A stretch of 64,000 nucleotides of DNA from Candidatus Campbellbacteria bacterium (GCA_016699465.1 CP064977.1:542503-606502); one strand, 5' to 3'. Positions 1-51,639 are shown, counted from the stretch's first letter. The notes: a model not told the origin generated them from the sequence alone. Numbers and translations: made by a program.

Positions 1-254
1 TGAATATCGCGCACTACTTTTTTTCCAAGTGATTCTTCGAGTTGCTGGAGTATAACTCCCTTTTTTAGGAAGAGTGCGTTTTTTAGTCCACTTTCTGCAA
101 TACAGTATGCTACTGGACCAATTATTCGAATATCTTTTTCTTGTAGTTGTACTGACGTTTTTTCTTCAATAATTTGTATAAGTTTTTTTCGCACCACCAT
201 ATCTGGAGGTGTAATATCTTTATACCGAGAAAGAAAATCGAGTATTCCCTTCAT
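1..254 (-). CDS. hypothetical protein, N-terminal part only (gene runs off the left edge of the window); start codon 3 nt downstream of dnaN stop
   Basis: ATG at 252-254 on minus strand, open frame to position 1 (MKGILDFLSRYKDITPPDMVVRKKLIQ...). Operon-like spacing after dnaN. No family recognised. Confidence 0.35.
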   Translation of the reverse strand, partial: MKGILDFLSRYKDITPPDMVVRKKLIQIIEEKTSVQLQEKDIRIIGPVAYCIAESGLKNALFLKKGVILQQLEESLGKKVVRDI

Positions 255-3309: not shown

Positions 3310-3324
3310 GGCCGCTCTGCCTTC

Positions 3325-3654
3325 ATGCTTCCAAAAAACAAACGACTCGCCACACAACAGTTTGATACAGCCTTTTCAGCTGGACAAGTTATTCGTACGC
3401 CACATTTTCTTATCCGACACCATACTTCCCCACTCAAAAACCAGTGGGCGGTTGTTATTCCTAAAAAACACATTCGCACGGCAGCTGCTCGAAACACACT
3501 TCGAAGACAAATATATTCTGCAATTGAAATGCTTCTAAAAGAAAATAAATCTTTTACGGGTCACTACATTGTTATTCTTACAAAAAAAGAAACGCTATGT
3601 ATTGCAGAAATATATAATGAGATACATAGTGCAGTAACTAGACGCATGCTGTAA
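3325..3654 (+). CDS. rnpA: ribonuclease P protein component
   Basis: 109 aa basic protein immediately after rpmH and before yidC (conserved rpmH-rnpA-yidC synteny). RnpA-like length and charge. Confidence 0.8.
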   Translation: MLPKNKRLATQQFDTAFSAGQVIRTPHFLIRHHTSPLKNQWAVVIPKKHIRTAAARNTLRRQIYSAIEMLLKENKSFTGHYIVILTKKETLCIAEIYNEIHSAVTRRML

Positions 3655-3657
3655 AGC

Positions 3658-4404: not shown

Positions 4405-4430
4405 CAAAAACATATAACATGTAACAAAAA

Positions 4431-4463
4431 GGTCTCGCCCTCACGTGGGGGCGAGACCTTTTT
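4431..4463. terminator. bidirectional rho-independent terminator between yidC and the convergent minus-strand gene
   Basis: ggtctcgccc-tcacgtgg-gggcgagacc followed by ttttt, and T-run on the opposite strand as well. Confidence 0.6.
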
Positions 4464-4469
4464 AATTTC

Positions 4470-5705: not shown

Positions 5706-5712
5706 ACAAGTC

Positions 5713-6612
5713 TTATAAAGACACCCCGTTAATTCGGCACTTTATTCCTAGACACGAATGCCAGTGAGGCCCAGTACCTGTGGGTTCGTCCCAAAAATAA
5801 CTGTCCCCCCATTTATAAACATGTCCTCCAACAGACGCCTCACCCTTATCTTCTTGGCTTTTTAAAAAAGCATCGAGTTGCATACTGTGCGCTAAATCTA
5901 CCACAGGTTGTCCTGGTCCGTGGGTTGTGTGTCCGCCCTCTGTCCCCCCGTTAATAATCAAATCCCCCCCGACTCGTTGTAATTCTTGAAGTCGACTTAT
6001 TGCTGAAGGGGGTAGATCTCCAACATTCGTACAACCTTGTGTTTGTCCGGCGGGGCAAGCGTCGTGATTTACGGTGATTCCAGGAAGTAGTGAGTTGCGG
6101 ACATTCGCCTCTTGTACGGGGTCGGTTGTGCCATTTCCCCCACTAGTTGGTGGTGTTACTCCAGTTCCACCAGTACCTCCCGCTGGTGCGGTAATTGTAT
6201 TTAATCTGTCAAAAAGACCAAAGTTAATAAGTTGTGGGTTGATAGTGTTGAGAATAATAACAGAACCAAATACGAGAATGAGACCACCTATAATGCTATA
6301 GAATGCTTTTTTTGCTTCTTCTTTTTTTCCAACAACATCTGACATCATGTAGATGACACCGTTGTAGACAAACATAAGAATGGCAAGCGTTACGGCAATT
6401 CCAAGACCAATTTTAAAAATGGTGTTGAGATATCCCGCCACCCCACCACCAGCTCCAGGTGTTACTGATGAGCCGAGTCCTGGGAGATCGCTAACAAGAA
6501 GTTTGTATGCAACTGGGGCCGCCGCGTGTGTAAAAAATATTGGTACGATATATAGAATAAAAAGTGCGACACATAATATGTTTTTTTTGGAGAATAGTGT
6601 CATATTATTCAA
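5713..6612 (-). CDS. membrane protein with pilin-like N-terminal region (signal + 2 TM) and Gly/Thr/Pro-rich linker to a Cys/His-containing C-terminal domain
   Basis: Hydrophobic segments LGIAVTLAILMFVYNGVIYMM and FYSIIGGLILVFGSVIILNTI resemble VirB2/TrbC-type topology. C-terminal ...GGHTTHGPGQPVVDLAHS...HWHSCLGIKC could be a metal-binding/hydrolase-like domain (speculative). Confidence 0.5.
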   Translation of the reverse strand: MNNMTLFSKKNILCVALFILYIVPIFFTHAAAPVAYKLLVSDLPGLGSSVTPGAGGGVAGYLNTIFKIGLGIAVTLAILMFVYNGVIYMMSDVVGKKEEAKKAFYSIIGGLILVFGSVIILNTINPQLINFGLFDRLNTITAPAGGTGGTGVTPPTSGGNGTTDPVQEANVRNSLLPGITVNHDACPAGQTQGCTNVGDLPPSAISRLQELQRVGGDLIINGGTEGGHTTHGPGQPVVDLAHSMQLDAFLKSQEDKGEASVGGHVYKWGDSYFWDEPTGTGPHWHSCLGIKCRINGVSL

Positions 6613-7333
6613 GGGTGATGGTTATACTACTTGATGCGCGTTGAAGAATTTCCGTAACGTGGTTGATTAAAAGTTGCAATTGTATTGTTCGTGGTTCGTC
6701 GCTTTGTATTGCAACACTTGCGCCGGTTGCGCCAGAAACTTTTTGTCCATTTGCGGTCCACGTGTAACTCAACGAACCCTCCTCACGAGCATGTGTTGAT
6801 GAAAAGTAAGGGTACGCCTCGATGATCATATCTTTTTCTGTTGTTGTAAAAGATGTTGGAAGTACGCGTTCGAGAGCAATACCTTCGAGCGGACGATTTT
6901 CATAAAATCGTATAATGGGATTTACTTTCTGCATTTTAACCATCCCGATCTCTTTTGTTTTTCCATTAGAAACTTCAACAACAATGAGGGGTACGTCACC
7001 AAATTGTGAACCTTCAAATGTAAATGACTGTTTACCAACTCCCGAAAGAGATCCTTGGGCCGTGCCATCACGCTTCCATTTATAGGTAAGCGTTGCAGGA
7101 TCACCCATAGAAGCAGGAGGAAGAGCGAGAACCGTTGTCTTGCCACCCACAGGATAGAGTGCCTTTCCTTTATAAAAGGGCGGAATATATGAATTAACCT
7201 CCCATATCATTTCAACTGTTGGCTTAATGAGGTTGGTTGAGACGTTTATTTGTGCGTTTGCGACGTTTCCGTACACAAATAGTTCACATACAAAGAGAAG
7301 GGTGAGAAGTATTATTTTTTGGAATACGCTCAT
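6605..7333 (-). CDS. secreted hypothetical protein (signal peptide)
   Basis: MSVFQKIILLTLLFVCELFVYGNVANAQ signal peptide. No family recognised. Confidence 0.55.
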   Translation of the reverse strand: MSVFQKIILLTLLFVCELFVYGNVANAQINVSTNLIKPTVEMIWEVNSYIPPFYKGKALYPVGGKTTVLALPPASMGDPATLTYKWKRDGTAQGSLSGVGKQSFTFEGSQFGDVPLIVVEVSNGKTKEIGMVKMQKVNPIIRFYENRPLEGIALERVLPTSFTTTEKDMIIEAYPYFSSTHAREEGSLSYTWTANGQKVSGATGASVAIQSDEPRTIQLQLLINHVTEILQRASSSITITLE

Positions 7334-7360
7334 ACGTATATACTATCACCCTTTTTTATT

Positions 7361-8110
7361 TTAAGCGGCTATTTTTTCCTCGTTTTCCACACCGCCAGAT
7401 GAAGGAGAGTAATCATTTAATGGGCCACTATTACTTGCGAGAATTTGGTTTGGGGCTGCTATTTCTTGATTAAAACCTTGTCGTTGAACTAGGTGTGGAC
7501 GATCTTGGACCCGTGTCGATCGCTGGGGATTTTGCGTTTGTTGAGGTGATAAGTTGTTTTGACGAACGGATTCGCGCGGGGTGATGTCTTTCATGGTTTG
7601 TCGACCAGCAAGTGTGGCCGACCCTCCGTTTGTTTGTCGCTCCTTCATTCTTGCAAGTCGCTCACGGGCGCGGGCCACTCGTTCTGGGTTTGCTTCTCGA
7701 CGAACTGTCTTATTTGCTGTGCGGGAAATATCTTTTTTAAGTTGGTCTTTGGGTATTTTTCCTGTTGCTAGTCCGGCCACCCCTATTCCTGTTTTGTCCT
7801 CAATATCAGTCAGTACAATCATAATAATTGTTCCTGTGGTAATAAGGGGAAGTGCACTCACAATCGGAATTGCTTCACCAATGTATTCCACAACAGTTGT
7901 TACAATTTTTTTGGGGCTTATGAATGATACGCCGAGCATTTTAAACCAGATGTAAAACGTGATACCAGCTCCACCAATAGCAAGAAATTGCCCAACGACA
8001 GGAATAATACTGATGAGATCAAATATAATGGCGGTTCCAATCAGTTTGTAACGAGTCACCGGATCGATTCGTCGTGGCTTTTTGTTTTCTTGAGAATCAT
8101 TTTCTGCCAT
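7361..8110 (-). CDS. integral membrane hypothetical protein with charged low-complexity C-terminus
   Basis: Several TM helices (IGTAIIFDLISIIPVVGQFLAIGGAGITFYIWF...) followed by an R/E/Q-rich tail. Confidence 0.5.
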   Translation of the reverse strand: MAENDSQENKKPRRIDPVTRYKLIGTAIIFDLISIIPVVGQFLAIGGAGITFYIWFKMLGVSFISPKKIVTTVVEYIGEAIPIVSALPLITTGTIIMIVLTDIEDKTGIGVAGLATGKIPKDQLKKDISRTANKTVRREANPERVARARERLARMKERQTNGGSATLAGRQTMKDITPRESVRQNNLSPQQTQNPQRSTRVQDRPHLVQRQGFNQEIAAPNQILASNSGPLNDYSPSSGGVENEEKIAA

Positions 8111-8117
8111 AGTGTAG

Positions 8118-10043
8118 TTACTCTATATTCTTTACGTCCATTCCTTGAGTGAGAAGTTCGTTTTGATGTTCTTCGGACCTAGATATTTTTTCTATAAGAG
8201 GTCCTTCATCGGGTACTTGTTGAGAAGTTTGGCGTGACTCTTTGAGCTCCTCGCGCGATTTTTTAAGTGCAAGAATTTGCGATGGGTCTGAGGTGATGAT
8301 TTGATCCTCTGTATATGATGCAATACTTTTTATTGCCACGTGCTTAAGACCTGCAAAGAAAATCCCTTCCCCGCGATCTGATTCAAGGAGTAAGAATTTT
8401 TCTTCATCAGTAAGATTGAATGTTTGTTGCACGAGATCAATGGATGACGGAGACTGCTTTAAAAGGATTTGAATAGATGAGTTGGTAATAATGGGAAGTC
8501 CATACGGAGAATGTAAAAAGTCGCCCACGTCTTGCGTGATGGTTGCAATACCAAGGAAATATTTTCGTCCACGCTTTGCAAGACCAAACAAGAGTGATGC
8601 TGTGTTCTCATCTTTCATCATAAGCCACGCCTCATCAACAACGAGAAGGCGTTTTTTAAGTTCTCGACGAACAGCACTCCAGATGTAGTGCGTAATCAAA
8701 TACATAGCAACAGGCTTAAGCTCGTCTTCCATATCGCGGACAGAAAAGACAATAAACTTCTTATTGATGTCTACGTTCGTTGCGTTATTGATGAAACCCG
8801 CCCACGTTCCTTTGGTGTACTTTGAAAGGCGTTGTACAAGTGACTCCCCTCCCTCCATGCCCGCAAGTACGAGTTCAAAATCAGAAAGAAGTGGCGGTTC
8901 GACTCCGGTGAAGTCGTGTTCACCAGTAATATCCTTGAGTGCATACACCTCGGTAATTGCGCGATCGATGATGGCATCTTCTTCTGGGGTAAGTCCTCCA
9001 AACATAATACGGAAAAGTCCGACGAGTGTAATAATGTTTGAACGAAGTACGTTTGCAGGTGTTTCGTCCTCACGGACAGGTGGCAAATCAAATGGATTGA
9101 TGTGGTGTTGAGACGTGAGAGAAATATCAAAATAGCGCCCACCCATTGCGCTTGCCATGATTTCATATTCACGTTCAGGGTCAATCACAATAACTTCTGT
9201 TTCAAACATAAGCGTACGCAAGATCTCGAGCTTTGTTGCGTAGCTTTTTCCAGCGCCGGCCGTGGCAAACATCACCGAGTTATAGTTTGGCATTGAAAAA
9301 CGATCGAAGAGAATAAGGCCTGAGTTGTGGCGGTTAACTCCGTACAAAATTCCTTTGTTTGATGAAAGATCAAATGATACAAATGGGAAAAAGCTCGAAA
9401 GTGGCGCGGTGTTGAGTTTGTTGTGGATACCAAGTTCGTCGGTGCCAATAGGAAGAATGCTTTTAAATCCTTGTTCTTGTTGAAAGAGTGCTGGTTTGAG
9501 ATAAATAAGACGAGATTCGAGAAGGGATCGAATCTCTGATTCAATTTTATCAAGGTCGTTTTCATTTTCTGAATAAATAGAAATGTAGAGCCCGACATCA
9601 AAAAGTTTTTCTGTTGCCTGTTGGAGTTGGTCGCGGAGTGATTCGAGGTTTTCGTAGGCACTATCAAGCATTGGGTCGCGCACAAGACCTTTTTCCTCGC
9701 GCATGTGAATTTGACTTTGTACTTCGGCAACACGTTTACGGAACTCTTTAAGGACTTGTGCGGTATCAACGGGAATAATGGAGAGTGAGAGATCAAATAT
9801 TTTATCCATATTGATAATTGGCGAGAGCCAGTTATCAGGAAGAAATCGTGGGTATGAAATAACAAAAAAGGTGCGCACTACACTGTCTCCCAAATTGAGC
9901 GCGCGCGGTGTTATCTTGAGCGCAGATGGTGCAATGACATCTTGGAGCTCAAGTACACCCGCCTCATAAATATCTTTTGGAAGCACAGGGGTAATCTGAA
10001 CGGTATCTTTCTTTTTTCCTTTGATGATATCAAAAAGTCCCAT
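8118..10043 (-). CDS. VirB4/TrbE/TraC-like type IV secretion (conjugation) ATPase
   Basis: 641 aa. Walker A FATAGAGKSYATK, Walker B LLVVDEAW, length and motif spacing of VirB4-family ATPases (Gram-positive PrgJ/TcpF-like size). Confidence 0.8.
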   Translation of the reverse strand: MGLFDIIKGKKKDTVQITPVLPKDIYEAGVLELQDVIAPSALKITPRALNLGDSVVRTFFVISYPRFLPDNWLSPIINMDKIFDLSLSIIPVDTAQVLKEFRKRVAEVQSQIHMREEKGLVRDPMLDSAYENLESLRDQLQQATEKLFDVGLYISIYSENENDLDKIESEIRSLLESRLIYLKPALFQQEQGFKSILPIGTDELGIHNKLNTAPLSSFFPFVSFDLSSNKGILYGVNRHNSGLILFDRFSMPNYNSVMFATAGAGKSYATKLEILRTLMFETEVIVIDPEREYEIMASAMGGRYFDISLTSQHHINPFDLPPVREDETPANVLRSNIITLVGLFRIMFGGLTPEEDAIIDRAITEVYALKDITGEHDFTGVEPPLLSDFELVLAGMEGGESLVQRLSKYTKGTWAGFINNATNVDINKKFIVFSVRDMEDELKPVAMYLITHYIWSAVRRELKKRLLVVDEAWLMMKDENTASLLFGLAKRGRKYFLGIATITQDVGDFLHSPYGLPIITNSSIQILLKQSPSSIDLVQQTFNLTDEEKFLLLESDRGEGIFFAGLKHVAIKSIASYTEDQIITSDPSQILALKKSREELKESRQTSQQVPDEGPLIEKISRSEEHQNELLTQGMDVKNIE

Positions 10044-37485: not shown

Positions 37486-38412
37486 ATGATCAAAGATGTT
37501 GAAACATTAAAAAGAGAATTTCTTGAATACCTCGAGATTGAGCGAGGTCGTTCTATTAAGACAATAGAAAACTACGACCGGTACCTCTCTCGATTTATTG
37601 CATTTTCGAAGGTGTCCAAGACGAGTGATATTACCGAGACATCTGTTCGTGAATTTCGTTTGTGGTTGAACCGCCAAACATCGCGTGTCCAGAAAAAAGA
37701 TGCAGGTAACACCTTGAAAAAGAATACACAGAACTACTACCTCATCGCCCTCCGTGCATTTTTAAAGTTTCTACGTAAACGAAACGTGGAAACACTTCAA
37801 CCAGAAGCAATTGAACTCGCAAAAGTCGGCGAACGTGATCTTGATTTAATTACACCAGTGGAGCTTGGTCGTATTATGGATGCCCCAAAAGGAAGCTCTG
37901 TGCAAGCACTGCGAGATAAGGCGTTGTTGGAGCTACTCTTTTCAACAGGTATGCGTGTATCGGAGCTCGTATCACTTCCGCGCGATGTTGATTTGTCGCG
38001 AGGCGAATTCTCTATTCGTGGAAAGGGTGAAAAGGTTCGTGTGGTCTTCGTTTCCCCTTCTGCACGAGATGCGGTTAATGCGTATTTAGAAAAAAGAACT
38101 GACATGGACGATGCACTCTTTATCCAGTTTGGAAAGGCGTCAAAAAATGCAAAAGACTTGAGGTTAACGGCTCGTTCTGTTGAGCGTTTGGTAAAACGAT
38201 ATGCAGTGAAATCAGGTATCAGTAAGAAAGTAACACCACACGTCATTCGCCACTCGTTTGCGACCGATTTACTTGAGAATGGTGCTGATTTACGAAGTGT
38301 GCAGGCACTCCTCGGTCATGCAAATATCACCACGACGCAAGTGTACACGCACGTGACCGACAAACATTTGAAAGAGGTGCACAACAAATTCCACGGCCAA
38401 CAAAAACAATAG
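37486..38412 (+). CDS. tyrosine recombinase XerC/XerD family
   Basis: 308 aa. N-terminal core-binding domain. C-terminal catalytic ...HVIRHSFATDLLENGADLRSVQALLGHANITTTQVYTHV (R..HxxR..Y). Confidence 0.85.
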   Translation: MIKDVETLKREFLEYLEIERGRSIKTIENYDRYLSRFIAFSKVSKTSDITETSVREFRLWLNRQTSRVQKKDAGNTLKKNTQNYYLIALRAFLKFLRKRNVETLQPEAIELAKVGERDLDLITPVELGRIMDAPKGSSVQALRDKALLELLFSTGMRVSELVSLPRDVDLSRGEFSIRGKGEKVRVVFVSPSARDAVNAYLEKRTDMDDALFIQFGKASKNAKDLRLTARSVERLVKRYAVKSGISKKVTPHVIRHSFATDLLENGADLRSVQALLGHANITTTQVYTHVTDKHLKEVHNKFHGQQKQ

Positions 38413-45535: not shown

Positions 45536-46999
45536 CTATTCAACGTGGTGTTTTGAGCGAATTTTTTTGACTTCTTTTTCCTCGGCTTCTTCTTGCGCAT
45601 CTCTCCCCTTTTCACCAAGCACGCGGAGTTCTGTATCAGGTAGTTTTGCAAGCGCGTGTGCACGAGTTTCCAAATACTCTTTTGTATTTTGTGTTGGGTC
45701 ATCAAGTACATCTTCAAGAAGTGCGTGGAGAATCCATCCTATACGTGGTCCAGGGCGCTCTCCAAGGAGCTCCATGAGTTGTTTTCCATCAATCTGTAGC
45801 ATTCCTACCGAAACAGGATCACGCATCACCTCATCAATCATCGCTTTATACTTACGCAAACGATACGGTTGTTCTTTTGGTCGTCCTGTCCCGATTCGGT
45901 CGCACACACGCATGTTTAAAATATCTTCAACGTTCTCTGGTCCAACATTTCGAATGAGACGACGCACTGCGGAGTGCGTAATTTGTTCTGTGTCTGAGAA
46001 AAACATGTGCCACCGAACAAGTTTCACTACTTTATCAACAACCTCTGTTGGAAATCGCAATTCTTGCATGCGTTTGCGTGCAAGTCGTGAGCCAACAACT
46101 TCGTGTCCATGGAATGACCAATCGTTTTTCTTTGTATCCATTGCCTTTGTGTGTGGTTTTGCAATGTCGTGGAAGAGTGCCGCGAGACGAAGCTCAAGTG
46201 AGAACTTTTTATCAGCAGCCGCTTGCAGAGTACGTCCAATGTGCTCAAAAACCGTGTACGAATGGGCCTGATTCTGGCCTACCCCAATTCCCTTTTCTAA
46301 TTCTGGAACAACATATGAAAGCAATTTGTGTTCATGGAGAAGCTGTATTCCTCGAAATGGACTGTCTGACAAAAGCATTTTAGTAAATTCATCACGAATT
46401 CGTTCAGCTGAGATGTGTGCAAGATCATCTGCATGTTTGAGAATTGCATCTGATGTCTTTTTTTCAATTTCAAAACTAAGTTCTGTTGCAAAACGAACAG
46501 CACGCAACATGCGAAGTGCATCTTCGTTAAATCGTTTTTCTGCGTCACCAATCGCACGGATCAGTGTATCTTCTAAATCTTTTTTTCCATCGTACAAATC
46601 AACGAGTGTGTTGGTTGTTGTATCAAATGCAAACGCATTAATAGTAAAATCACGTCGTGCCAAGTCTTCTTCAAGTGATGTACCAAAAGAAACCTCGTCA
46701 GGGTGTCGTTTGTCGCTATACCCACTCTCCTTTCGATACGGTGTGACCTCAATTGCTTTGAGTGTTGCATCTTCTGTTTCATCGTTGACTACACCAACGG
46801 TTCCATATTCGTTTTCGTAGAAGGTGTGCGGAAAAAGCGCCTGGATTTGTTCAGGTGTTGCGTTTGTGGTCACATCCCAATCTTTTGGTGTTCGATCAAG
46901 ATACATATCTCGAACACAACCACCAACAAGATATGCTTCATACCCACTATGTTGGAGAAGAGCCACAATTCCACGCGCTTCTTTTGGTAGATCTTTCAT
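45536..46999 (-). CDS. cca: CCA-adding tRNA nucleotidyltransferase with C-terminal HD domain
   Basis: GGCVRDMYLDRTPKDWDVTT (pol-beta-like NT motif), HD domain HDIAKP. 487 aa. Confidence 0.85.
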   Translation of the reverse strand: MKDLPKEARGIVALLQHSGYEAYLVGGCVRDMYLDRTPKDWDVTTNATPEQIQALFPHTFYENEYGTVGVVNDETEDATLKAIEVTPYRKESGYSDKRHPDEVSFGTSLEEDLARRDFTINAFAFDTTTNTLVDLYDGKKDLEDTLIRAIGDAEKRFNEDALRMLRAVRFATELSFEIEKKTSDAILKHADDLAHISAERIRDEFTKMLLSDSPFRGIQLLHEHKLLSYVVPELEKGIGVGQNQAHSYTVFEHIGRTLQAAADKKFSLELRLAALFHDIAKPHTKAMDTKKNDWSFHGHEVVGSRLARKRMQELRFPTEVVDKVVKLVRWHMFFSDTEQITHSAVRRLIRNVGPENVEDILNMRVCDRIGTGRPKEQPYRLRKYKAMIDEVMRDPVSVGMLQIDGKQLMELLGERPGPRIGWILHALLEDVLDDPTQNTKEYLETRAHALAKLPDTELRVLGEKGRDAQEEAEEKEVKKIRSKHHVE

Positions 47000-47155
47000 G
47001 ACTTTATTGTAAGAGATTCGACCGAACTTTCGAAGGATTCGCCCGCGCCTCTCAGCTCGTCGTCGCTCGCTTCGGACTGGGCACCAACTCGTTGTTCGAA
47101 TCCCTCACGGTCGTGCATTAAAGCACGACCTCAGGAACACCTCGCTTCGCTTCAG

Positions 47156-47227
47156 TGCCCCCGGAGGGATTCGAACCCCCAACAACAGGTTCGAAGCCTG
47201 TCGTGATATCCATTTCACCACGGGAGC
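47156..47227 (-). tRNA. tRNA-Arg (anticodon TCG), CCA not encoded
   Basis: Hand-folded cloverleaf: acceptor GCTCCCG/CGGGGGC, D stem GTGA/TCAC, anticodon stem ACAGG/CCTGT with loop CTTCGAA, T arm GGGGG-TTCGAAT-CCCTC. Confidence 0.85.
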
Positions 47228-47449
47228 AATACTATTGCCCAAGAATAATACAGGTGAATCGGTCACGAGTTTCTAGCTTCCTCACTGTGCTTCGCACAAT
47301 TCCGTCGCAAGAACTCTCGACTCCAGCTCGTCCCCACCTTCAGCGGATGACTGCGCTTTTCGATTCTCCACGCAAACAAAGTAGTTTGTTTGCTCTGCTT
47401 CGCAAAACATAAGAAAAAACCGGAAGATATCAGATTTTTTCTTAGTTTG

Positions 47450-47520
47450 TGCGGGCAGGGAGAATCGAACTCCCGTCTCGTCCTTGGCAAGGACGTGTTC
47501 TACCACTAAACCATGCCCGC
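47450..47520 (-). tRNA. tRNA-Gly (anticodon GCC), CCA not encoded
   Basis: Acceptor GCGGGCA/TGCCCGC, anticodon loop TTGCCAA, T arm GGGAG-TTCGATT-CTCCC. Confidence 0.9.
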
Positions 47521-47868
47521 TTTTATTGATGCTTTGATGGACACGTCCACCACAAAGAACAGTATATCTATTTTTCGTCAATTTACCATATGTTTATAAC
47601 AATTTTAGGATACTAGTATATTCTTCGACCATGCATTTTTGAGAGTCGGTCACTGTTAAAGGTCTTTATATTAAAAGACAGTTAGTTTTTCATATGGTCT
47701 TTAATGAATGCGTATTTTAAAGGGTAAAATGTGGAAAACTGTGGACAATTAGGGGGATATGTGTAAAAGACAGGCAATTGGACACATGTAAAATGGTGGC
47801 AAAAATGACAATAATATAGCCTAGTTAAGCCGTTTTATGTATTTTGTCTCTGATAATGTCCGATATAT

Positions 47869-48318
47869 ATGTTTCACGTGAAACAACCACTAAACTGTTA
47901 CACGTGTAACGGTATTTTTATGAAAAATGACCCAAAACACATACAAATAGGGAAAATTGGAGAAGAATTGGCTTGTCTGTTTCTTGTGAAACGAGGATTT
48001 AAGATCGTGGAAAGACACTATTTAAAGAAATGTGGAGAGATAGATATTATTGCAAACAAAGACAAAGTTTTAAGATTTGTTGAAGTTAAGTGCGTTTCAC
48101 GCGAAACAGGGAATAGTGTAGTTTCACGTGAAACACAGAAAAGGCCAGAGGAAAACGTTACACGTGAAAAGCTTGAGCGACTTTCTCGAACAATTCAAAC
48201 ATATTTAGCAGAGAAACGTATTTCACGTGAAACACGGTATCAGGTAGATGTGGTTGCTATTCGCCTCAATCTAAAGGACAAAACAGCGCGCACACTATTT
48301 ATTGAGAATGTCCTTTAA
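47869..48318 (+). CDS. YraN-family (UPF0102) putative endonuclease carrying in-frame palindrome-derived VSRET-type repeats
   Basis: IGKIGEELACLFLVKRGFKIVERHYLKKCGEIDIIANKDKVLRFVEVK is the YraN core. Start may be the internal MKNDPKH. Six GTTWCACGTGWAAC palindromes lie in and just upstream of the gene. Confidence 0.55.
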   Translation: MFHVKQPLNCYTCNGIFMKNDPKHIQIGKIGEELACLFLVKRGFKIVERHYLKKCGEIDIIANKDKVLRFVEVKCVSRETGNSVVSRETQKRPEENVTREKLERLSRTIQTYLAEKRISRETRYQVDVVAIRLNLKDKTARTLFIENVL

Positions 48319-48488
48319 AAATAATAGAGGTTGGAAGTTAGAGGTGAGAGGTTAGAGATTAGTTTGGGAGTTGGTTTAGAAAAGAAAACAGCCCCCGGTT
48401 TCCCGTTGGCTGTGCGTGAGCTTCGGCTCACGACTTCGGAGATTCTGTTGCCAGGCTCTCCGCGGGCTCCGTAAGTGCTGGGTCAGGA

Positions 48489-48812
48489 TCATGCGCTGAC
48501 CTCAATTTCGAGGGTGGCATCCGGAAAGTGACGTCGAACAATTTCTTCGGTCACTTCACGCGGTTCCATCCCGAAATCCGCACTTTCCTCGAAAATCCAA
48601 ATGTGCTTGAAGTCGGCAAATGCTTGAATCTTACCTCCTCCAAGACACTGGATTTTCTGGTTACCCACCTCCTCGCGGAGCTTCTTGAAGAGTTCTCTGT
48701 GGTAGCCCTCTCCGATACGAAGCACCACAAGGGGTGACGACCCAACCTCGGCGAGAATGAACTTGCGGTCAATCTGGCCGAAATCGTTCCAAACCACGAG
48801 TTCGTTGGTCAT
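48489..48812 (-). CDS. hypothetical protein (107 aa)
   Basis: Clean ORF with plausible hairpin downstream. No family recognised. Confidence 0.45.
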   Translation of the reverse strand: MTNELVVWNDFGQIDRKFILAEVGSSPLVVLRIGEGYHRELFKKLREEVGNQKIQCLGGGKIQAFADFKHIWIFEESADFGMEPREVTEEIVRRHFPDATLEIEVSA

Positions 48813-49020
48813 TTTCTTCTCCTCAAAGATCTCGATGTGCGTTATTGCTCATCGTTCTGGACACAGTGTACATGAGTTTGAATATATTGTCAAACAAGAT
48901 GACTAAAATGTTTAGTGGTGATATCTATAAAATAGCCCTAAATAATGGTTTATATAGATTTCCACTTTAAGTTGTCAATAATATTGACTATTATACTTTC
49001 TTCGTATATGCTGTTTCTAT

Positions 49021-49764
49021 ATGGAATTTCAAGAACTCGTTGAATCACTCGGCTTTTCCGAGAAAGAGGCATCCGTCTATCTTGCCCTACTAAAGCGAGG
49101 GGCTGTGTCTGCCTATGGAGTTGCCGTCGCTAGTGGGCTCAAGCGACCAACGGCATATGTCATTCTTGATGAGTTGGTCCGAAAGGGTGCAGCAATTTTA
49201 GTCCCTCGCACTACAAAGAAGTTGTATCGTGCAGTACCACCCGAGAATCTTCTTGAACGTGCACGAGCAAGGCTTGAACGTGTCGAAGAGGCGCTCCCAA
49301 AAATAAAAGCACTTGAAAAAGTTGGCACAGAGAAACCACAGGTGTTGTATTTTGAAGGTGTTGAGGGTGTCAAAGAAGCACTGCGCTATGGTTTGAGTAC
49401 ACTTGAGAACAAAACTATTAAAGGATTCTACGCAAAAACATCCCCCGAGGTCATGAAAACATTTGGCGGATATACCGATTACAATGACGCGTTGAAAGAA
49501 CATAATGTGCACATGCAAGGGATTGCACCAAAAGATTCTTCCTTGAAATCATTTAGAGAAAAGGATACAGAATACGGACGAGAGTTCGTTGAGGTGTCTG
49601 AAAAAGAATACTCATCAGACATTGCTGTTGAAATTGGTCCAACATTTGTGCGCTTTTTTGATCCACTTAATTTGCAAGGACTTATTATTGAAAATCCCGC
49701 AATCACTAAAACAATGCGTGAGATTTTTGAAATCGTGTGGAAGTCATTGGAAAACGGTAAATAA
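49021..49764 (+). CDS. TrmB-family transcriptional regulator
   Basis: N-terminal wHTH LGFSEKEASVYLALLKRGAVSAYGVAVASGLKRPTAYVILDELVRKGA typical of TrmB. 247 aa. Confidence 0.6.
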   Translation: MEFQELVESLGFSEKEASVYLALLKRGAVSAYGVAVASGLKRPTAYVILDELVRKGAAILVPRTTKKLYRAVPPENLLERARARLERVEEALPKIKALEKVGTEKPQVLYFEGVEGVKEALRYGLSTLENKTIKGFYAKTSPEVMKTFGGYTDYNDALKEHNVHMQGIAPKDSSLKSFREKDTEYGREFVEVSEKEYSSDIAVEIGPTFVRFFDPLNLQGLIIENPAITKTMREIFEIVWKSLENGK

Positions 49765-49787
49765 AATGTTAGAGTGTTTGGGCATTT

Positions 49788-49861
49788 CGGGGCGTAGTAT
49801 ACCGGTAGTACGTCTGCTTTGGGAGCAGATAGACCGAGTTCGATTCTCGGCGCCCCGACCA
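49788..49861 (+). tRNA. tRNA-Pro (anticodon TGG), CCA encoded
   Basis: Acceptor CGGGGCG/CGCCCCG, anticodon stem TCTGC/GCAGA with loop TTTGGGA (G37), T arm CCGAG-TTCGATT-CTCGG, 3' ACCA. Confidence 0.85.
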
Positions 49862-49984
49862 TGAATCCTGTTAGAGATTACTCAGTTTGTTTCTCTCTGT
49901 AATAAGAGGAGATGTTTTTTGTCTCTCTATTTTATGAACGTACAATAACTACGGAAATAAGAAGTATTTCCTATCTCTAACGGG

Positions 49985-50299
49985 ATGAAAGACGAATCAT
50001 TTAAAGACTTTGTATTGGATCAACTTGTTGATATCCCTGATGTAACAGAACGGAAGATGTTTGGGGCATTTGGGTTATATTCTGAAGGAAACTTTTTTGC
50101 GATTATTGATGACGGTGTTTTGTATTTAAAAACGGACGCTGAAAGCAAGCAGAAATTTATTGACGCAGGTATGGATTGTTTTCGCCCGAGTAAAGACCAG
50201 GTGTTAAAAAATTATTACGAAGTTCCAGCAGACGTACTTGAAGACAAAGAAATACTCGCGCGGTGGGCATCTGAATCTATCACTCCTTTTCAAAAGTAA
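49985..50299 (+). CDS. TfoX/Sxy N-terminal-domain-like protein
   Basis: ...VTERKMFGAFGLYSEGNFFAIIDDGVLYLKTDAESKQKF resembles the TfoX N-domain core (competence-regulator family). 104 aa. Confidence 0.5.
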   Translation: MKDESFKDFVLDQLVDIPDVTERKMFGAFGLYSEGNFFAIIDDGVLYLKTDAESKQKFIDAGMDCFRPSKDQVLKNYYEVPADVLEDKEILARWASESITPFQK

Positions 50300-50440
50300 A
50301 TAGTATGTGTGGTGTGTGTGTTTTATCGTTGTTAAAGAAAGATAAAATGGTTGTGCGGGTGTTGTTGACTCTGTAGGGGTGCGTTGCTATACTCGTGCGC
50401 ATTCGCATACGGCGAATCATATTAATTAATATACGTACAT

Positions 50441-50596
50441 ATGTCAGATTTAGATGATGTTGTGCTTCCAACGGATGGAGATGAGGAGGAGGTCTCGAAG
50501 GACCTTAAAAGGGGTCTAGATCTCGAAGGTGAAGGGATTGAAGATGAAGAAGAGGTGGATGAATTTTTTGACGATGAGACAACGGACGAAGAGTAA
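50441..50596 (+). CDS. highly acidic micro-protein (51 aa), below ORF-track cutoff
   Basis: Hand-translated MSDLDDVVLPTDGDEEEVSKDLKRGLDLEGEGIEDEEEVDEFFDDETTDEE. No obvious RBS, so weak. Confidence 0.25.
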   Translation: MSDLDDVVLPTDGDEEEVSKDLKRGLDLEGEGIEDEEEVDEFFDDETTDEE

Positions 50597-50719
50597 TTTG
50601 TATAAAATACAGAGCCGATACGCCTACCTTGTAATGGTGGGCGTTGTCGTTTTTGCATTTTTTGGTACTATGCTTCTATAGCATTGTTTAATGGGGTACC
50701 CGTTTGAGCTTTAACAGAT

Positions 50720-50790
50720 GCGGGCATGGTTTAGTGGTAGAATGACTGCCTTCCAAGCAGTAGACGGGAGTTCGATTCTCCCTGCCCGCA
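50720..50790 (+). tRNA. tRNA-Gly (anticodon TCC), CCA not encoded
   Basis: Same acceptor/D/T arms as the GCC isoacceptor. Anticodon stem ACTGC/GCAGT loop CTTCCAA. Followed by terminator gccggatatgtgtccggc+TTTTT. Confidence 0.9.
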
Positions 50791-50950
50791 CAAACAAAGA
50801 AAAAGCCGGATATGTGTCCGGCTTTTTCTTATGTTTTGCGAGGTAGAGCAAACAAATTTCTTTGTTTGTGTGGAGAATCGAACGACGGAGCATGTTGCGA
50901 AGCAACTGTGAGTCGCGTCCAGCGAATCTTATGATCGAAGCGAATTAGAT

Positions 50951-50967
50951 ATCGCGGGACGATTCTC
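50951..50967. repeat. duplicated tRNA-Gly 3' end (17 nt, gattctccctgcccgca), att-site-like scar
   Basis: Exact copy of the last 17 nt of tRNA-Gly(TCC) 161 bp downstream of the intact gene. A further 12-nt partial copy lies at 51222-51233, adjacent to a repeated 22-mer gcgaattagatatcgcRggacg (50930-50951 and 51232-51253). Confidence 0.5.
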
Positions 50968-51360
50968 CCTGCCCGCACAGAAATAAAAATACTCCAGCAT
51001 CACGCTGGGGTATTTTTATTTCTGCCGTTGGAGAGAATCGAAAGTCGCAGGTGCGCGTCCTGTGGACGAGGAAGCACCGACCCAGTAGGTCAATGTACTC
51101 ATTGAGACGGGCAATCAGTAGATTGTGCCGAAGAAGGCTGAGAGAACACTTTGTATTTTTGAGCGTATGCGAAAAAATACTTAGTGATTTGTGGGCGATT
51201 CTCTTTGAAAAACTCGTGACTGATTCTCCCTGCGAATTAGATATCGCAGGACGGCTCTCCTTGTCCATAAAATTTTGTGATCAATTCTCCTAACACTTTA
51301 TTTTCTTAAAAACAAAAATACCACCATGCGGTGGTATTTTTGTATGTGAGACAATGAAGT

Positions 51361-51639
51361 TTATTTTCCCTTCACTGCTTCTTTGAGCGCCTTTGCTGCT
51401 GTGAACTTTGGTACTTTTGTTGCTGGAACTTGTACCATCGCTCCTGTGCGTGGGTTGCGTGCTGTTCGTGCTGCGCGTGCGCGAACTTTGAATGCACCCA
51501 ATCCTGCGATTGCAACTTCACCTCCGCTTTTGAGCGTTGATGTAATTGAATCAATGACTGTGTCCATGATGCGCTCTGCGTCTGCCTTGGTAACTCCGTG
51601 GCGTTCTGCAATGCGCTCAACAAGTGCTGCTTTATTCAT
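51361..51639 (-). CDS. hup: HU-family nucleoid DNA-binding protein
   Basis: MNKAALVERIAERHGVTKADAERIMDTVIDSITSTLKSGGEVAIAGLGAFKVRARAARTARNPRTG is a canonical HU/IHF fold sequence. Confidence 0.8.
   Translation of the reverse strand: MNKAALVERIAERHGVTKADAERIMDTVIDSITSTLKSGGEVAIAGLGAFKVRARAARTARNPRTGAMVQVPATKVPKFTAAKALKEAVKGK

What the first reader, a model, noticed from the sequence alone, without database searches (positions are those of the whole stretch)
47340..51300. Divergent tRNA-Gly pair with conserved inverted downstream elements and multiple tRNA 3' end fragments, bracketing an accessory gene patch
tRNA-Gly(GCC) (47450-47520, minus) and tRNA-Gly(TCC) (50720-50790, plus) share identical acceptor, D and T arms. 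Each is followed, in its own orientation, by a terminator and a conserved 55-60 nt element, with 47359-47413 the inverted homolog of 50828-50882. That element contains a CAAACAAA…TTTGTTTG hairpin and ends in a T-arm-like GTGGAGAATCGAA. Further downstream of the TCC gene lie an exact 17-nt copy of the tRNA 3' end (50951-50967), a 12-nt partial copy (51222-51233) and a repeated 22-mer GCGAATTAGATATCGCRGGACG. This is the kind of scarring left by successive integrase-mediated insertions and excisions at a tRNA attachment site. The 3.2 kb between the two tRNAs (YraN-like gene, hypothetical gene, TrmB regulator, tRNA-Pro, TfoX-N-like gene, acidic micro-protein) is flanked by inverted homology and could invert.
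Basis: seen in the sequence. Interest (0 to 1): 0.55.

Follow-up and report, generated by a model that had tools for sequence, protein, structure and literature searches.

The report
tRNA-anchored structured RNA cassette family
The supposed integration scars beside two glycine tRNA genes are copies of a widespread, apparently undescribed structured element of ultra-small (CPR) bacteria that sits behind tRNA genes and closes its fold with a copy of that tRNA's own 3' end, so it looks like a new kind of tRNA-linked RNA or mobile cassette.

Summary
The window holds four copies (47028-47110 -, 47248-47374 -, 50867-50973 +, 51027-51209 +) and three 3' fragments of a ~100-350 nt element family. I found this family behind at least 11 tRNA species in ~45 metagenome/MAG loci of Minisyncoccota/Patescibacteria. 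Each unit lies in the tRNA's orientation behind a hairpin or terminator. It has a 5' arm that is the reverse complement of the tRNA's own positions 54-65(-74), a conserved core, and a 3' arm copying tRNA positions 56-74, always starting at C56 (25/25). Arms and core form a three-way junction with strong covariation: 94% paired vs 72% shuffled, 20/24 pairs with double changes, and G·U 51 vs A·C 17, which places the fold on the tRNA-sense strand. No Rfam 15 family or paper matches, and no integrase or RT lies nearby. Close relatives differ in presence/absence. A 62-nt core module is 97% identical behind tRNA-Arg in one genome and tRNA-Gly here, so modules move and arms are re-tailored. Best reading: tRNA-mimicking structured RNA cassettes of unknown function. 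The Gly(TCC) gene plus flank is a remoulded copy of Gly(GCC). The proposed 3.2-kb inversion is unsupported.

The parts
47028..47110 (-). Unit 'W-Arg', behind tRNA-Arg(TCG) and forming the leader of the CCA-adding enzyme gene (start codon at 46999). The 5' arm GAGGGATTCGAA is at 47095-47106 and the 3' arm CGAATCCTTC at 47032-47041. A second partial arm lies at 47009-47020.
   Evidence: Covariance model R1 gives 14.6 bits, E 0.034. The arms are complementary to and copy tRNA-Arg's own T arm. Units occupy the same place in L082, L083 and L085 (28.7-66 bits).
47155..47227 (-). tRNA-Arg(TCG). Its positions 56-73 supply the arm sequence of unit W-Arg.
47248..47404 (-). Unit 'W-A', between tRNA-Gly(GCC) and tRNA-Arg. 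Distal 5' arm A' at 47395-47404; inserted hairpin at 47372-47393; proximal 5' arm GGAGAATCGAA at 47359-47369; core at 47262-47358; decayed 3' arm CGATTCACCTG at 47251-47261.
   Evidence: R1 gives 52.9 bits, E 5e-13 for 47248-47374. The MFE reproduces P1/P2/P3, z -3.3. Coordinates. An orthologous unit is present in L083 (76.5 bits) and absent in L082 and L085.
47411..47443 (-). A/U-rich hairpin between tRNA-Gly(GCC) and unit W-A. It is homologous to the Gly(TCC) terminator. Its stem extends into the tRNA 3' end and the 5' arm.
   Evidence: (I8)
47449..47520 (-). tRNA-Gly(GCC)
50720..50792 (+). tRNA-Gly(TCC) on a GCC-type backbone, i.e. a remoulded copy of the GCC gene. Positions 56-75 (50773-50792) are direct repeat copy 1.
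   Evidence: L082/L083 carry a different Gly(TCC) backbone.
50797..50830 (+). Intrinsic terminator-type hairpin between the tRNA and unit W-B
50837..50979 (+). Unit 'W-B', the best-preserved copy.
   Evidence: R1 gives 79.3 bits, E 2e-20. The MFE gives acceptor-like stem + hairpin + P1 + P2 + P3, z -5.1. Alignment and covariation.
50978..51024 (+). Second terminator-type hairpin, between units W-B and W-C
   Evidence: (I7)
51027..51209 (+). Unit 'W-C', a mosaic unit. 5' arm GGAGAGAATCGAA at 51030-51042; 3' arm CGATTCTCTTTG at 51196-51207, which pairs through G·U. Segment 51078-51139 is 97% identical to the core of the tRNA-Arg unit of L082.
   Evidence: R1 gives 36.5 bits, E 2e-8. MFE z -4.45. 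Module identity.
51208..51294 (+). Three tandem 3'-terminal fragments of units, each a P3 3' strand plus a partial 3' arm.
   Evidence: (D1). Homologous fragments occur in a different order in L007 and in L076 and L008.
51308..51343 (.). Bidirectional terminator hairpin that closes the array and the convergent HU gene (51361-51639 -)
   Evidence: (I4)
49788..49861 (+). tRNA-Pro(TGG), the one tRNA of the window without a unit (context)

Best explanation
The region contains four members and three fragments of a family of tRNA-anchored structured elements typical of Minisyncoccota/Patescibacteria.

Anatomy (shown). In the orientation of the tRNA, a unit reads as follows:
1. The tRNA.
2. A hairpin, often an intrinsic terminator.
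3. A 5' arm that is the reverse complement of that tRNA's own positions 54-65. Sometimes it extends to 74, and then it is split exactly at the T-stem/acceptor boundary by a 23-28 nt hairpin.
4. A conserved core: J 'AAA', then P2 (GAC..GUC with a GGA/GA internal loop), then J 'GG', then P3.
5. A 3' arm that is a direct copy of tRNA positions 56-74.

The two arms pair (P1) and close a three-way junction. The pairing constraints lie on the tRNA-sense strand.

Mechanism (inferred).
- The unit is transcribed with the tRNA, by read-through or as part of the same transcription unit, which usually ends at a second terminator.
- It folds into an RNA whose closing helix imitates the coaxial acceptor/T-stem stack of the neighbouring tRNA. 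The T loop is replaced by the conserved junction domain.
- This tRNA-like end is the likely handle for excision and stabilisation by the tRNA-processing machinery (RNase P, RNase Z, CCA-adding enzyme).
- What the junction domain binds or catalyses is unknown.

Evolution (shown).
- The units behave as cassettes. They are gained, lost, tandemly duplicated and truncated.
- Core modules are exchanged between different tRNA loci while the arms match the local tRNA.
- The 19-20 nt direct repeats offer an obvious route for precise loss and for array expansion.

The window's inverted 'pair' exists because the Gly(TCC) gene and its 91-nt flank are a remoulded copy of the Gly(GCC) gene and its flank.
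For: Family and anatomy:
- A pattern from the window's unit found 73 metagenome loci, about 45 of them real. Each real one lies 42-90 nt behind a same-strand tRNA, never an opposite-strand one. The tRNAs are Gly, Glu, His, Arg, Thr, Met, Leu, Ala, Val, Tyr and Phe.
- A GTDB MAG hit shows two units behind tRNA-His whose arms are His-specific.
- The direct repeat starts exactly at C56 in 25/25 first units. Its modal exact length is 19-20 nt.
- A 5' arm of 7-19 nt followed by AA lies behind 35 of 56 tRNAs in the loci.
- In 8 of 31 units the 5' arm is split; in 7 of these by a 23-28 nt hairpin at tRNA position 64-66.

Structure:
- RNAalifold predicts a three-way junction in which 14/24 pairs have compensatory changes.
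- On 48 distinct units, 94.2% of cells are paired against 72% in shuffles (0/500 reach it) and 29-51% when slid. 20/24 pairs have double changes, including in P2 and P3, which are unrelated to the tRNA.
- G·U/U·G count is 51 against A·C/C·A 17.
- C-to-U changes in the 3' arms of W-C and W-Arg keep pairing as G·U.
- Single-sequence folds of the window copies reproduce the model, z -2.9 to -5.1.
- The CM finds only these four sites in 64 kb.

Cassette behaviour:
- Presence/absence differs among relatives.
- Core identity of 85-91% occurs between units on different tRNA species, while units within one genome differ.
- A 62-nt module is 97% identical at tRNA-Arg in L082 and at tRNA-Gly(TCC) in the window.
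- Tandem duplicates occur in L013 and L023.

Not previously catalogued:
- No Rfam 15 hit at E<=10 or E<=1.
- Seven full-text searches found nothing.
- TIGR arrays were read and excluded.
Against: - No expression data exist. Transcription, processing and the RNA (rather than single-stranded DNA) nature are inferred.
- An intrinsic terminator usually separates the tRNA from the unit, so expression depends on read-through or on an unrecognised promoter.
- In 20 of 31 units the 5' arm covers only positions 56-63..71, so the acceptor part of the mimic is often unpaired. Even so, the 3' arm keeps full identity with the tRNA there. A pure 'P1 pairing' constraint does not explain this.
- Nothing explains how both an inverted and a direct copy of a new tRNA's 3' end are generated when a core changes locus.
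- The alignment used for the large pair count was fitted to the model, which inflates pairing somewhat.
- W-Arg is a weak CM hit on its own (E 0.034; fold z -0.7).
Confidence: 0.6

Rival explanations
1. Non-autonomous DNA mobile element whose conserved fold is a single-stranded DNA structure. This would be comparable to integron attC sites, the CTX-phage folded attP, or IS200/IS605-type PATE ends. It would be moved in trans by a recombinase or HUH enzyme encoded elsewhere, which cuts at T55|C56 of the T loop. The element would carry its own replacement tRNA 3' end plus terminator.
For: - The left repeat boundary is invariant at C56.
- The topology tRNA[56-74] - hairpin - inverted copy - core - [56-74] is what a Campbell-type or peel-and-paste insertion of a circle carrying one att copy would give.
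- There are arrays, truncated copies and presence/absence polymorphism.
- Modules move between loci.
- GCGAAGC-type mini-hairpins, which are also very stable in DNA, are frequent in the loops.
- The strand bias of G·U(T) pairs fits a folded top strand as well as it fits RNA.
Against: - No transposase, HUH, integrase or RT recurs within 4 kb of units, and none was found in the 64-kb window apart from Xer.
- There are no hits in viral contigs.
- An element hopping to a different tRNA would create a chimeric tRNA unless all three tRNA-specific segments were rewritten.
- The hairpin inserted exactly at the acceptor/T-stem boundary, and the modular peripheral domains of up to 350 nt, look like RNA tertiary architecture rather than a recombination site.
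- Units sit strictly inside tRNA transcription units.
Confidence: 0.15
2. Cis-acting (or trans-acting) riboregulator of the tRNA itself. The 5' arm can pair either with the tRNA's real 3' half (through the extended terminator hairpin) or with the decoy 3' arm. The conserved junction would act as a sensor that decides which pairing forms, and so controls folding or maturation of that tRNA.
For: - This is the only model that requires all arm segments to match the neighbouring tRNA.
- The tRNA 3' end, terminator and 5' arm form one long near-perfect palindrome (I6/I8, 30).
- In the MFE of the read-through RNA, the tRNA 5' strands pair with the decoy while the real 3' end pairs with the 5' arm.
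- Where repeat copies differ, the 5' arm more often still matches the tRNA than the decoy (31 vs 11 positions; the alignment is noisy).
Against: - The tRNA is transcribed and folds first, and it is normally cut from its trailer.
- A terminator precedes the 5' arm.
- Second and third units in arrays, and units whose arms have co-drifted away from the tRNA (W-C), have no tRNA to regulate.
- There is no ligand or protein candidate.
Confidence: 0.12
3. One reading: passive scars (attL/attR remnants) left by successive integrase-mediated insertion and excision of genomic islands at tRNA-Gly.
For: - There are direct repeats of the tRNA 3' end starting in the T loop, a classical sublocation for tRNA-targeting integrases (established knowledge).
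- The gene patch between the tRNAs is variable.
- L085 shows a tRNA-Gly gene nested between 5' and 3' fragments of another.
- In L023, two identical units bracket 3.6 kb of accessory genes.
Against: - The sequences between the repeats are a conserved family with covarying helices, found behind many tRNA species.
- There is no integrase at any of about 40 loci and none adjacent in the window.
- The inverted copy of the tRNA end is not expected from integrase scars.
Confidence: 0.05
4. Decayed tandem tRNA genes or tRNA pseudogene debris, with the similarity to T arms arising only from former tRNA genes in both orientations.
For: - T-arm-like strings occur in both orientations.
- tRNA gene turnover at the locus is real: a remoulded Gly(TCC), and fragments in L085.
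Against: - The core has no tRNA homology and is conserved across tRNA species.
- ARAGORN and Rfam call no tRNA in it.
- The 5' arm includes the complement of T-loop positions 56-60, and in the contiguous long-arm cases of positions 73-74 and the trailer. A tRNA 5' half would not contain these.
Confidence: 0.02

Closest known systems
tRNA-targeting integrative elements and their att repeats (including integrase-less CIME-type remnants)
   Same: - Direct repeat of the tRNA 3' end that begins in the T loop and runs to the end of the gene.
- An intact tRNA is kept at the left junction.
- Tandem arrays and presence/absence polymorphism.
   Different: - No integrase.
- The 'insert' is 100-350 nt of conserved, covarying structure.
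- It contains an inverted copy of the same tRNA segment.
- The same core occurs with many different tRNAs, with the arms rewritten.
Integron cassettes / attC sites (CALIN arrays)
   Same: - Arrays of units separated by imperfect palindromes.
- The fold on one strand, rather than the sequence, is what is conserved.
- Cassette-like exchange.
   Different: - No IntI and no R/L box consensus.
- The conserved part is the 'cargo' rather than the site.
- Anchored to tRNA genes and co-oriented with them.
- No ORFs.
tRNA-like non-coding RNAs (tmRNA tRNA-like domain, bacterial YrlA Y RNA, mascRNA, viral 3' tRNA-like structures)
   Same: - RNA that imitates the acceptor/T-stem part of a tRNA, with a foreign domain inserted.
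- Expected use of tRNA-processing enzymes.
   Different: - Here the insertion replaces the T loop, not the anticodon arm.
- The mimic copies the sequence of the adjacent tRNA rather than one fixed identity.
- There are many copies per genome.
- No Rfam model matches. A tmRNA_permuted hit of 14.4 bits, E 8.5, is noise.
IS200/IS605-derived PATEs and REP/BIME elements
   Same: Small, ORF-less, strand-specific structured repeats that could be moved in trans by a single-copy enzyme.
   Different: - No TnpA/RAYT was seen.
- The ends are target-derived and tRNA-specific.
- There is a three-way junction core with long peripheral domains.
Neurospora Mauriceville/Varkud retroplasmids (3' tRNA-like tag; integration next to mitochondrial tRNA genes through hybrid cDNAs). 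Recalled knowledge, not tested.
   Same: - A selfish nucleic acid ending in a tRNA-like 3' structure.
- Its DNA copies end up joined to tRNA gene 3' ends.
   Different: - Those are eukaryotic organelle plasmids of 3.6 kb that encode their own RT.
- No RT was found here, and no CCA is encoded.
Functional RNAs from tRNA 3' external transcribed spacers (e.g. E. coli 3'ETS-leuZ). Recalled knowledge.
   Same: Non-coding RNA produced from the 3' flank of a tRNA transcription unit.
   Different: - 3'ETS RNAs lie before the terminator.
- They are not tRNA mimics, not a multi-copy family, and have no repeats of the tRNA.

Membership tests
Integrase-generated att scars / genomic island at a tRNA gene | Tyrosine (or serine) integrase gene next to the tRNA or inside the repeat-bounded segment | tested here: not met
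   Pfam/NCBIfam scans of 47 window ORFs found only a Xer-type recombinase, at 37486-38412, 9 kb away. No recombinase cluster appears among ORFs within 4 kb of units in 37 loci.
Integrase-generated att scars / genomic island at a tRNA gene | Direct repeat of the tRNA 3' end bounding the inserted DNA | tested here: met
   A 20-nt exact repeat at 50773-50792 / 50960-50979. The repeat starts at C56 in 25/25 units.
Integrase-generated att scars / genomic island at a tRNA gene | The sequence between the repeats is unrelated cargo or debris, not itself a conserved structured family | tested here: not met
   The core is conserved with covariation across about 48 units.
MITE (miniature inverted-repeat transposable element) | Element-specific terminal inverted repeats that are the same at every insertion, plus a short target-site duplication | tested here: not met
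   The inverted arms differ with the adjacent tRNA (Gly, His, Arg, Glu and others) and equal its 3' end. No short TSD is present.
Integron attC / CALIN | attC consensus (R''/L''..L'/R' boxes) and an Rfam attC-type match; IntI in the genome | tested here: not met
   No Rfam hit at E<=10. The arms are tRNA-derived. Whether IntI exists elsewhere in the genome is not testable here.
tmRNA / permuted tmRNA | Match to the tmRNA models, an intact T arm, and a tag reading frame | tested here: not met
   ARAGORN finds no tmRNA. The Rfam tmRNA_permuted hit is 14.4 bits against a gathering score of 47, E 8.5. The T loop is absent from the units.
Any Rfam 15 family | cmscan hit at or near the gathering score | tested here: not met
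   Only tRNA hits in the window and in six loci with strong units.
TIGR (tandem interspaced guide RNA) arrays of Patescibacteria | 36-nt units with two 8-12 nt repeats and 9-nt spacers next to a Nop-domain Tas gene | tested here: not met
   Units here are 100-350 nt, tRNA-linked, with no Tas/Nop gene nearby. Description taken from PMC12045711; neighbours.
tRNA-like (acceptor/T-stem mimic) RNA, used here as a working description rather than a curated family | Helix made of acceptor-type and T-stem-type strands, with any insertion tolerated only at the junction between them | tested here: met
   Split 5' arms are interrupted at tRNA position 64-66 in 8/8 split cases, 7 of them by a 23-28 nt hairpin. 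The fold of 50838-50980 gives acceptor-like stem + hairpin + T-stem-like P1.
tRNA-like (acceptor/T-stem mimic) RNA, used here as a working description rather than a curated family | The molecule exists as RNA and is processed by RNase P, RNase Z or the CCA-adding enzyme | not testable with these tools
   No transcriptome data. The only indirect support is strand bias and placement inside tRNA transcription units.

The most novel reading that the evidence does not exclude
There are two unconventional possibilities that the evidence does not exclude.

(a) The units are self-propagating, tRNA-tagged elements. An RNA (or its cDNA/ssDNA copy) would use the host tRNA's 3' end as its own terminal 'genomic tag'. 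At each new tRNA gene it would rewrite both a direct and an inverted copy of that end, by a copying mechanism that has no known counterpart.

(b) Alternatively, every tRNA in these reduced genomes carries its own sequence-matched anti-tRNA/decoy riboregulator.

Either way this would be a new class of tRNA-coupled RNA biology in Patescibacteria.
Probability: 0.25. Interest if true: 0.9.

Novelty: categorically new. Interest (0 to 1): 0.8.

Why it matters
- **Scale.** Patescibacteria have tiny, gene-dense genomes. Yet here a majority of the tRNA transcription units I could inspect carry 100-400 nt of conserved structured sequence: 3 of 4 tRNAs in the window, 4 of 4 in one MAG fragment, and 35 of 56 overall (the last sample is biased).
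- **If it is an RNA.** It would be a new, abundant, modular non-coding RNA class whose closing helix is copied from the neighbouring tRNA. That raises testable questions. Is it cut out by RNase P/Z? Is it CCA-tailed or even aminoacylated? What does the invariant junction bind?
- **If it is a mobile element.** Its target-copying arms imply an unknown insertion chemistry at T-loop position 55/56.
- **Practical consequences.**
  - The family explains recurrent assembly breaks and 'tRNA fragment' calls in CPR MAGs.
  - It gives a covariance model to annotate them.
  - It warns against reading tRNA 3'-end repeats automatically as integrase scars.
- **tRNA gene turnover.** The locus also documents isoacceptor remoulding and single-gene flips in these lineages.

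Tried and rejected
- **Rfam.** I searched at gathering and E-value thresholds on the window and on six loci. Only tRNAs matched; the weak miRNA, sRNA and tmRNA_permuted hits are noise caused by long hairpins.
- **tmRNA idea.** Some motifs look tmRNA-like (GGAUUCGAC-like, GAC before the T-arm part). I rejected it because there is no model hit, no tag ORF, and the elements are multi-copy.
- **5S rRNA, Y RNA, hammerhead, K-turn.** Resemblances seen by eye have no model support and the motifs do not fit, so I did not pursue them.
- **Viral origin.** Two scans of IMG/VR with core patterns gave 0 hits.
- **Linked enzyme.** All-against-all clustering of ORFs within 4 kb of units in 37 loci gave only housekeeping synteny groups: HU, RNase Y, CCA enzyme, YraN.
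- **ORF in long units.** The 360-nt L069 unit contains none.
- **5'-truncation bias**, as a retrotransposition signature. A motif count was uninformative because my regular expression was too crude. The tandem 3' fragments are real but I draw no mechanistic conclusion from them.
- **Within-genome similarity of cores**, as a sign of recent intragenomic bursts. It is not elevated (0.60 vs 0.57) apart from local tandem duplicates.
- **Exact-sequence look-ups** of the window's TrmB, CCA enzyme and TfoX proteins were not on record, and P0002 was not on record either.
- **TIGR-Tas arrays** were read and excluded.
- **The genome-contig scan** with a 21-nt pattern returned a single MAG, so per-genome copy number could not be measured.

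Full report
**1. What is in the sequence**

ARAGORN and Rfam find four tRNAs in the window:
- Arg(TCG) at 47155-47227 (-)
- Gly(GCC) at 47449-47520 (-)
- Pro(TGG) at 49788-49861 (+)
- Gly(TCC) at 50720-50791 (+)

The two Gly genes are 62/72 identical, and every difference lies in the anticodon arm. Read in its own orientation, each is followed by 91 nt that are 87% identical between the two loci (E 2e-24; 66 nt at 91% as an inverted repeat).

The only notable correction is that the exact copy of the tRNA 3' end is 20 nt at 50960-50979, matching 50773-50792.

- GGAGAATCGAA is the exact reverse complement of the T-loop/T-stem 3' strand of the same tRNA.
- tRNA-Arg is followed by the analogous string built from its own, different T arm (GAGGGATTCGAA, 47095-47106).

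**2. It is a family**

I searched a 21-nt pattern from the conserved element in 185,579 species genomes. It hit one MAG contig of a Minisyncoccia bacterium.

On that contig, tRNA-His is followed by two tandem units with the same internal motifs. Their flanking strings, however, are His-specific:
- CCTAGAGAGAATCG on the left
- CGATTCTCTCTAGGCACCCA on the right, the latter present three times as a direct repeat of the tRNA end

I then searched a core pattern (GAATCGAAMGACGGAG..GTGAG) in the metagenome collection. It gave 73 loci.
- About 28 are chance hits in GC-rich coding DNA.
- About 45 are true units.
- Wherever the contig extends far enough, the true units lie 42-90 nt behind a tRNA on the same strand, never behind one on the opposite strand.
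- The tRNAs are Gly, Glu, His, Arg, Thr, Met, Leu, Ala, Val, Tyr and Phe.

The organism context is CPR/Patescibacteria:
- TrmB and CCA-enzyme homologues are named Ca. Campbellbacteria, Kaiserbacteria, Wolfebacteria and Paceibacterota.
- Minisyncoccia is a class of Minisyncoccota.

**3. Anatomy**

In tRNA orientation a unit is made of five parts:
1. A hairpin, often a good intrinsic terminator.
2. A 5' arm that is the reverse complement of the tRNA's positions 54-65, sometimes up to 74.
3. A core beginning with AA(A/C)GACGGAG in the main family.
4. Two helices with variable tips.
5. A 3' arm that is a direct copy of tRNA positions 56-74.

The left edge of the direct repeat is at C56 in 25 of 25 first units. 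This includes tRNAs with other T-loop sequences. The modal exact length is 19-20 nt, and three cases run on into a duplicated terminator.

The 5' arm falls into three classes among 31 first units:
- contiguous over 17-19 nt in 3 units
- covering only the T-loop/T-stem part in 20 units
- split in 8 units

In all 8 split cases the interruption maps to tRNA position 64-66, the acceptor/T-stem boundary. In 7 of them it is a 23-28 nt 'AG-hairpin-GT' module. The window's CAAACAAA..TTTGTTTG hairpin is this module.

A 5' arm of at least 7 nt followed by AA lies behind 35 of 56 tRNAs in the collected loci, including all four tRNAs of the MAG fragment. Several of these have other core types (AAGCC.., AAGTCC.., AAGNCGCAG..), so the architecture is broader than the one core family I modelled.

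**4. Structure**

An alignment of 17 units, including window 50867-50973, gives an RNAalifold three-way junction:
- P1 is formed by the two arms.
- P2 is GAC..GUC, enclosing a GGA/GA internal loop and a variable hairpin.
- P3 is GUCGCGAG..CUCGUGAC-type with a variable hairpin.
- 14 of 24 pairs carry compensatory changes.

A covariance model built from it finds exactly four sites in the 64-kb window:

| Site | Strand | Bits | E-value |
|---|---|---|---|
| 50867-50973 | + | 79 | 1.7e-20 |
| 47248-47374 | - | 53 | 5.1e-13 |
| 51027-51209 | + | 36.5 | 2.2e-8 |
| 47028-47110 | - | 14.6 | 0.034 |

The model also finds 66 sites in the loci.

Pair counts on 48 distinct units:
- 94.2% of cells pair, against 72% in column shuffles (0/500 reach it).
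- Pairing falls to 29-51% when the partners are slid.
- 20 of 24 pairs show double changes, including all pairs of the distal part of P3, which owes nothing to the tRNA.
- Caveat: this alignment was fitted to the model.

Non-Watson-Crick cells are G·U/U·G 51 times and A·C/C·A 17 times. The constraint is therefore on the tRNA-sense strand.

In the window, the 3' arms of the third unit and of the Arg unit differ from the tRNA by C-to-U changes that keep pairing as G·U.

Single-sequence folds of the window copies reproduce the model, with z from -2.9 to -5.1. The Arg unit is weak at z -0.7.

- The '55-60 nt conserved element' is the 5' arm with its inserted hairpin.
- The 22-mer is the tip and 3' strand of P3 of one core subtype.
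- The 17/20-mer is the 3' arm.
- The 12-mer and the second 22-mer belong to three tandem 3'-terminal unit fragments (51208-51294).

**5. Not a known family**

- Rfam 15 reports nothing but tRNAs, even at E<=10.
- ARAGORN finds no tmRNA.
- Seven full-text searches found no description.
- TIGR arrays of Patescibacteria are a different thing: 36-nt units next to Tas genes (PMC12045711).
- Two scans of viral contigs were empty.

**6. Not integrase scars**

The genes around the finding are:
- CCA-adding enzyme
- UPF0102/YraN
- Ocnus-family protein
- TrmB
- TfoX_N
- HU
- RNase Y

In 47 ORFs of the window, the only recombinase is a Xer-type enzyme at 37486-38412. There is no RT and no transposase. 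ORFs within 4 kb of units in 37 loci share only housekeeping synteny.

**7. Dynamics**

Four syntenic relatives were recovered through TrmB, HU and the CCA enzyme.

*The unit behind tRNA-Arg.* It is directly in front of the cca start codon and is present in all of them.

*The unit between Gly(GCC) and Arg.*
- Present in the window and in L083 (76.5 bits, 3' arm 19/19).
- Absent in L082, the closest relative at 94% CCA-enzyme identity, which has a 38-nt spacer.
- Absent in L085, which has an 18-nt spacer.

*Behind Gly(TCC).*
- L082 and L083 have no unit.
- L001 has only remnants.
- L007 has the same modules in another order.

*Exchange between loci.*
- Cores that are 85-91% identical occur on different tRNA species in different genomes. 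Units within one genome are usually of different subtypes.
- Most directly, 62 nt of the core of L082's tRNA-Arg unit are 97% identical to window 51078-51139, which lies inside the second unit behind tRNA-Gly(TCC).
- The window's own Arg unit lacks that module.
- The 3' part of the same window unit resembles L083's Gly(GCC) unit.

Core modules therefore move or recombine between tRNA loci, and the arms always fit the local tRNA.

*Other events.*
- Tandem duplication occurs in L013.
- In L023, two identical units 3.7 kb apart bracket pyrophosphatase, 2H-phosphoesterase and membrane-protein genes.

**8. The Gly pair and the inversion idea**

L082 and L083 carry a Gly(TCC) gene with a different backbone (GCGGGAT..GGTCCGATTCCGGCATCCCGCA). 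The window, L001, L007 and L085 carry a TCC gene on the GCC backbone.

The window's 'divergent pair with conserved inverted downstream elements' is therefore best explained by remoulding. A copy of the GCC gene with its 3' flank (terminator plus 5' arm module) replaced the TCC gene.

In L085 the TCC gene lies on the opposite strand relative to its neighbours. It is flanked by a 33-nt 5' fragment identical to the window's TCC gene and by a 24-nt 3' fragment. In L082, Pro(GGG) is flipped. In all relatives the protein genes between the Gly genes keep their orientation.

Local tRNA-gene rearrangement is thus real. There is no comparative support for inversion of the whole 3.2-kb segment, and inversion isomers in the population remain untested.

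**9. How it most likely works**

*Shown:*
- A conserved, strand-specific three-way-junction fold.
- Its closing helix is made from the neighbouring tRNA's 3' segment and its complement.
- It sits inside the tRNA transcription unit.
- It turns over like a cassette.

*Inferred:*
- It acts as RNA, made by read-through from the tRNA. A second terminator commonly follows the unit, which makes sense only if polymerase gets there.
- Its closing helix imitates the acceptor/T-stem stack. An optional hairpin sits where the D and anticodon arms leave a real tRNA, and the conserved junction sits in place of the T loop.
- The tRNA-like end is the probable handle for RNase P, RNase Z and CCA-adding enzyme.
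- The invariant junction nucleotides are the functional site, with partner unknown.
- Loss and array growth are readily explained by recombination between the 19-20 nt direct repeats.

*Unexplained:*
- How the direct and inverted copies of a new tRNA end are written when a core changes locus.
- Why the 3' arm keeps full identity with the tRNA's acceptor strand where the 5' arm does not pair with it.
- Why the read-through RNA has two equivalent topologies, one of which uses the decoy as the tRNA's 3' half.

These open points keep two rivals alive:
- a single-stranded-DNA mobile element cut at T55|C56
- a tRNA-specific switch in which the 5' arm alternates between the real and the decoy 3' end

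**10. Verdict**

- The interpretation as integrase scars is not supported, although the tRNA-3'-anchored, polymorphic, array-forming nature was correctly sensed.
- What is there is a widespread and apparently undescribed tRNA-anchored structured element family.
- I rate it high in interest because of three things: its abundance in streamlined genomes, its unprecedented rule that the arms copy the neighbouring tRNA, and its ready testability.

Noticed in passing
window 48413-48471 (+): A ~59-nt element (GTGCGTGAGCTTCGGCTCACGACTTCGGAGATTCTGTTGCC...) with a UUCG hairpin, just 3' of the Ocnus-family gene. It is 95-100% identical in L001-L003 and L005/L006 (two places in L005/L006), although the flanking coding DNA is only ~74% identical. 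Many Logan contigs break exactly there, which suggests a multi-copy repeat.
   Followed up: partly
window 47869-48318 (+): The UPF0102/YraN-family gene carries five to six copies of the palindrome GTTTCACGTGAAAC / GTTACACGTG inside its reading frame, translated as V-S-R-E-T repeats (families D2, D3, I12, I19-I21, I25).
   Followed up: no
window 46999-47110 (-); L082 9858-10000, L083 9862-10000, L085 9859-10000: The unit behind tRNA-Arg is the immediate leader of the CCA-adding enzyme gene in all four genomes: tRNA-Gly, tRNA-Arg, unit and cca are co-oriented, and the start codon lies about 5-25 nt after the 3' arm. A CCA-less tRNA-end mimic in front of cca invites an autoregulation hypothesis.
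   Followed up: partly
L085 5975-6190: A complete tRNA-Gly(TCC) gene sits between a 33-nt 5' fragment and a 24-nt 3' fragment (positions 50-74) of another tRNA-Gly(TCC) allele. The gene is inverted relative to its orientation in L082, L083, L001 and the window.
   Followed up: partly
L082 8728-8800 vs L083 8124-8197 and L085 7197-7268: tRNA-Pro(GGG) is on the opposite strand in L082 compared with L083 and L085, while the neighbouring genes keep their orientation. This is a second single-tRNA-gene flip.
   Followed up: no
L023 7378-11196: Two identical units (68.8 bits each) lie 3.7 kb apart and bracket accessory genes (by eye: two inorganic pyrophosphatase-like, a 2H-phosphoesterase-like, membrane proteins, a DUF305-like protein; not domain-scanned) with no recombinase.
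   Followed up: partly
L003 1354-1740; L009 ~5000-5170: Small HNH-endonuclease-like ORFs lie next to tRNA genes or units: between tRNA-Pro(GGG) and tRNA-Pro(TGG) in L003, and directly upstream of a unit in L009.
   Followed up: no
L008 2330-2560, 3028-3270, 5420-5580: Other core families share the same arm architecture. Their cores start with AAGCCCCA, AAGTCCGA or AAGCCTGT, and one is a composite with an R1-type core nested inside. In the Leu(GAG) unit, the 3' arm has a generic AGATT T-loop part joined to the local T-stem and acceptor strand.
   Followed up: partly
window 50720-50980: In the minimum-free-energy fold of the tRNA-plus-unit read-through RNA, the tRNA's 5' acceptor and T-stem strands pair with the downstream copy. 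Meanwhile the tRNA's real 3' end pairs with the 5' arm through the terminator hairpin, giving a tRNA with a ~190-nt insertion in its T loop (z -9.5).
   Followed up: no
window 258-10043: The start of the window holds dnaN, dnaA and yidC, followed by a type IV secretion-like cluster (T4SS pilin, TraG/VirB4-type ATPase). The window therefore lies near the replication origin.
   Followed up: no
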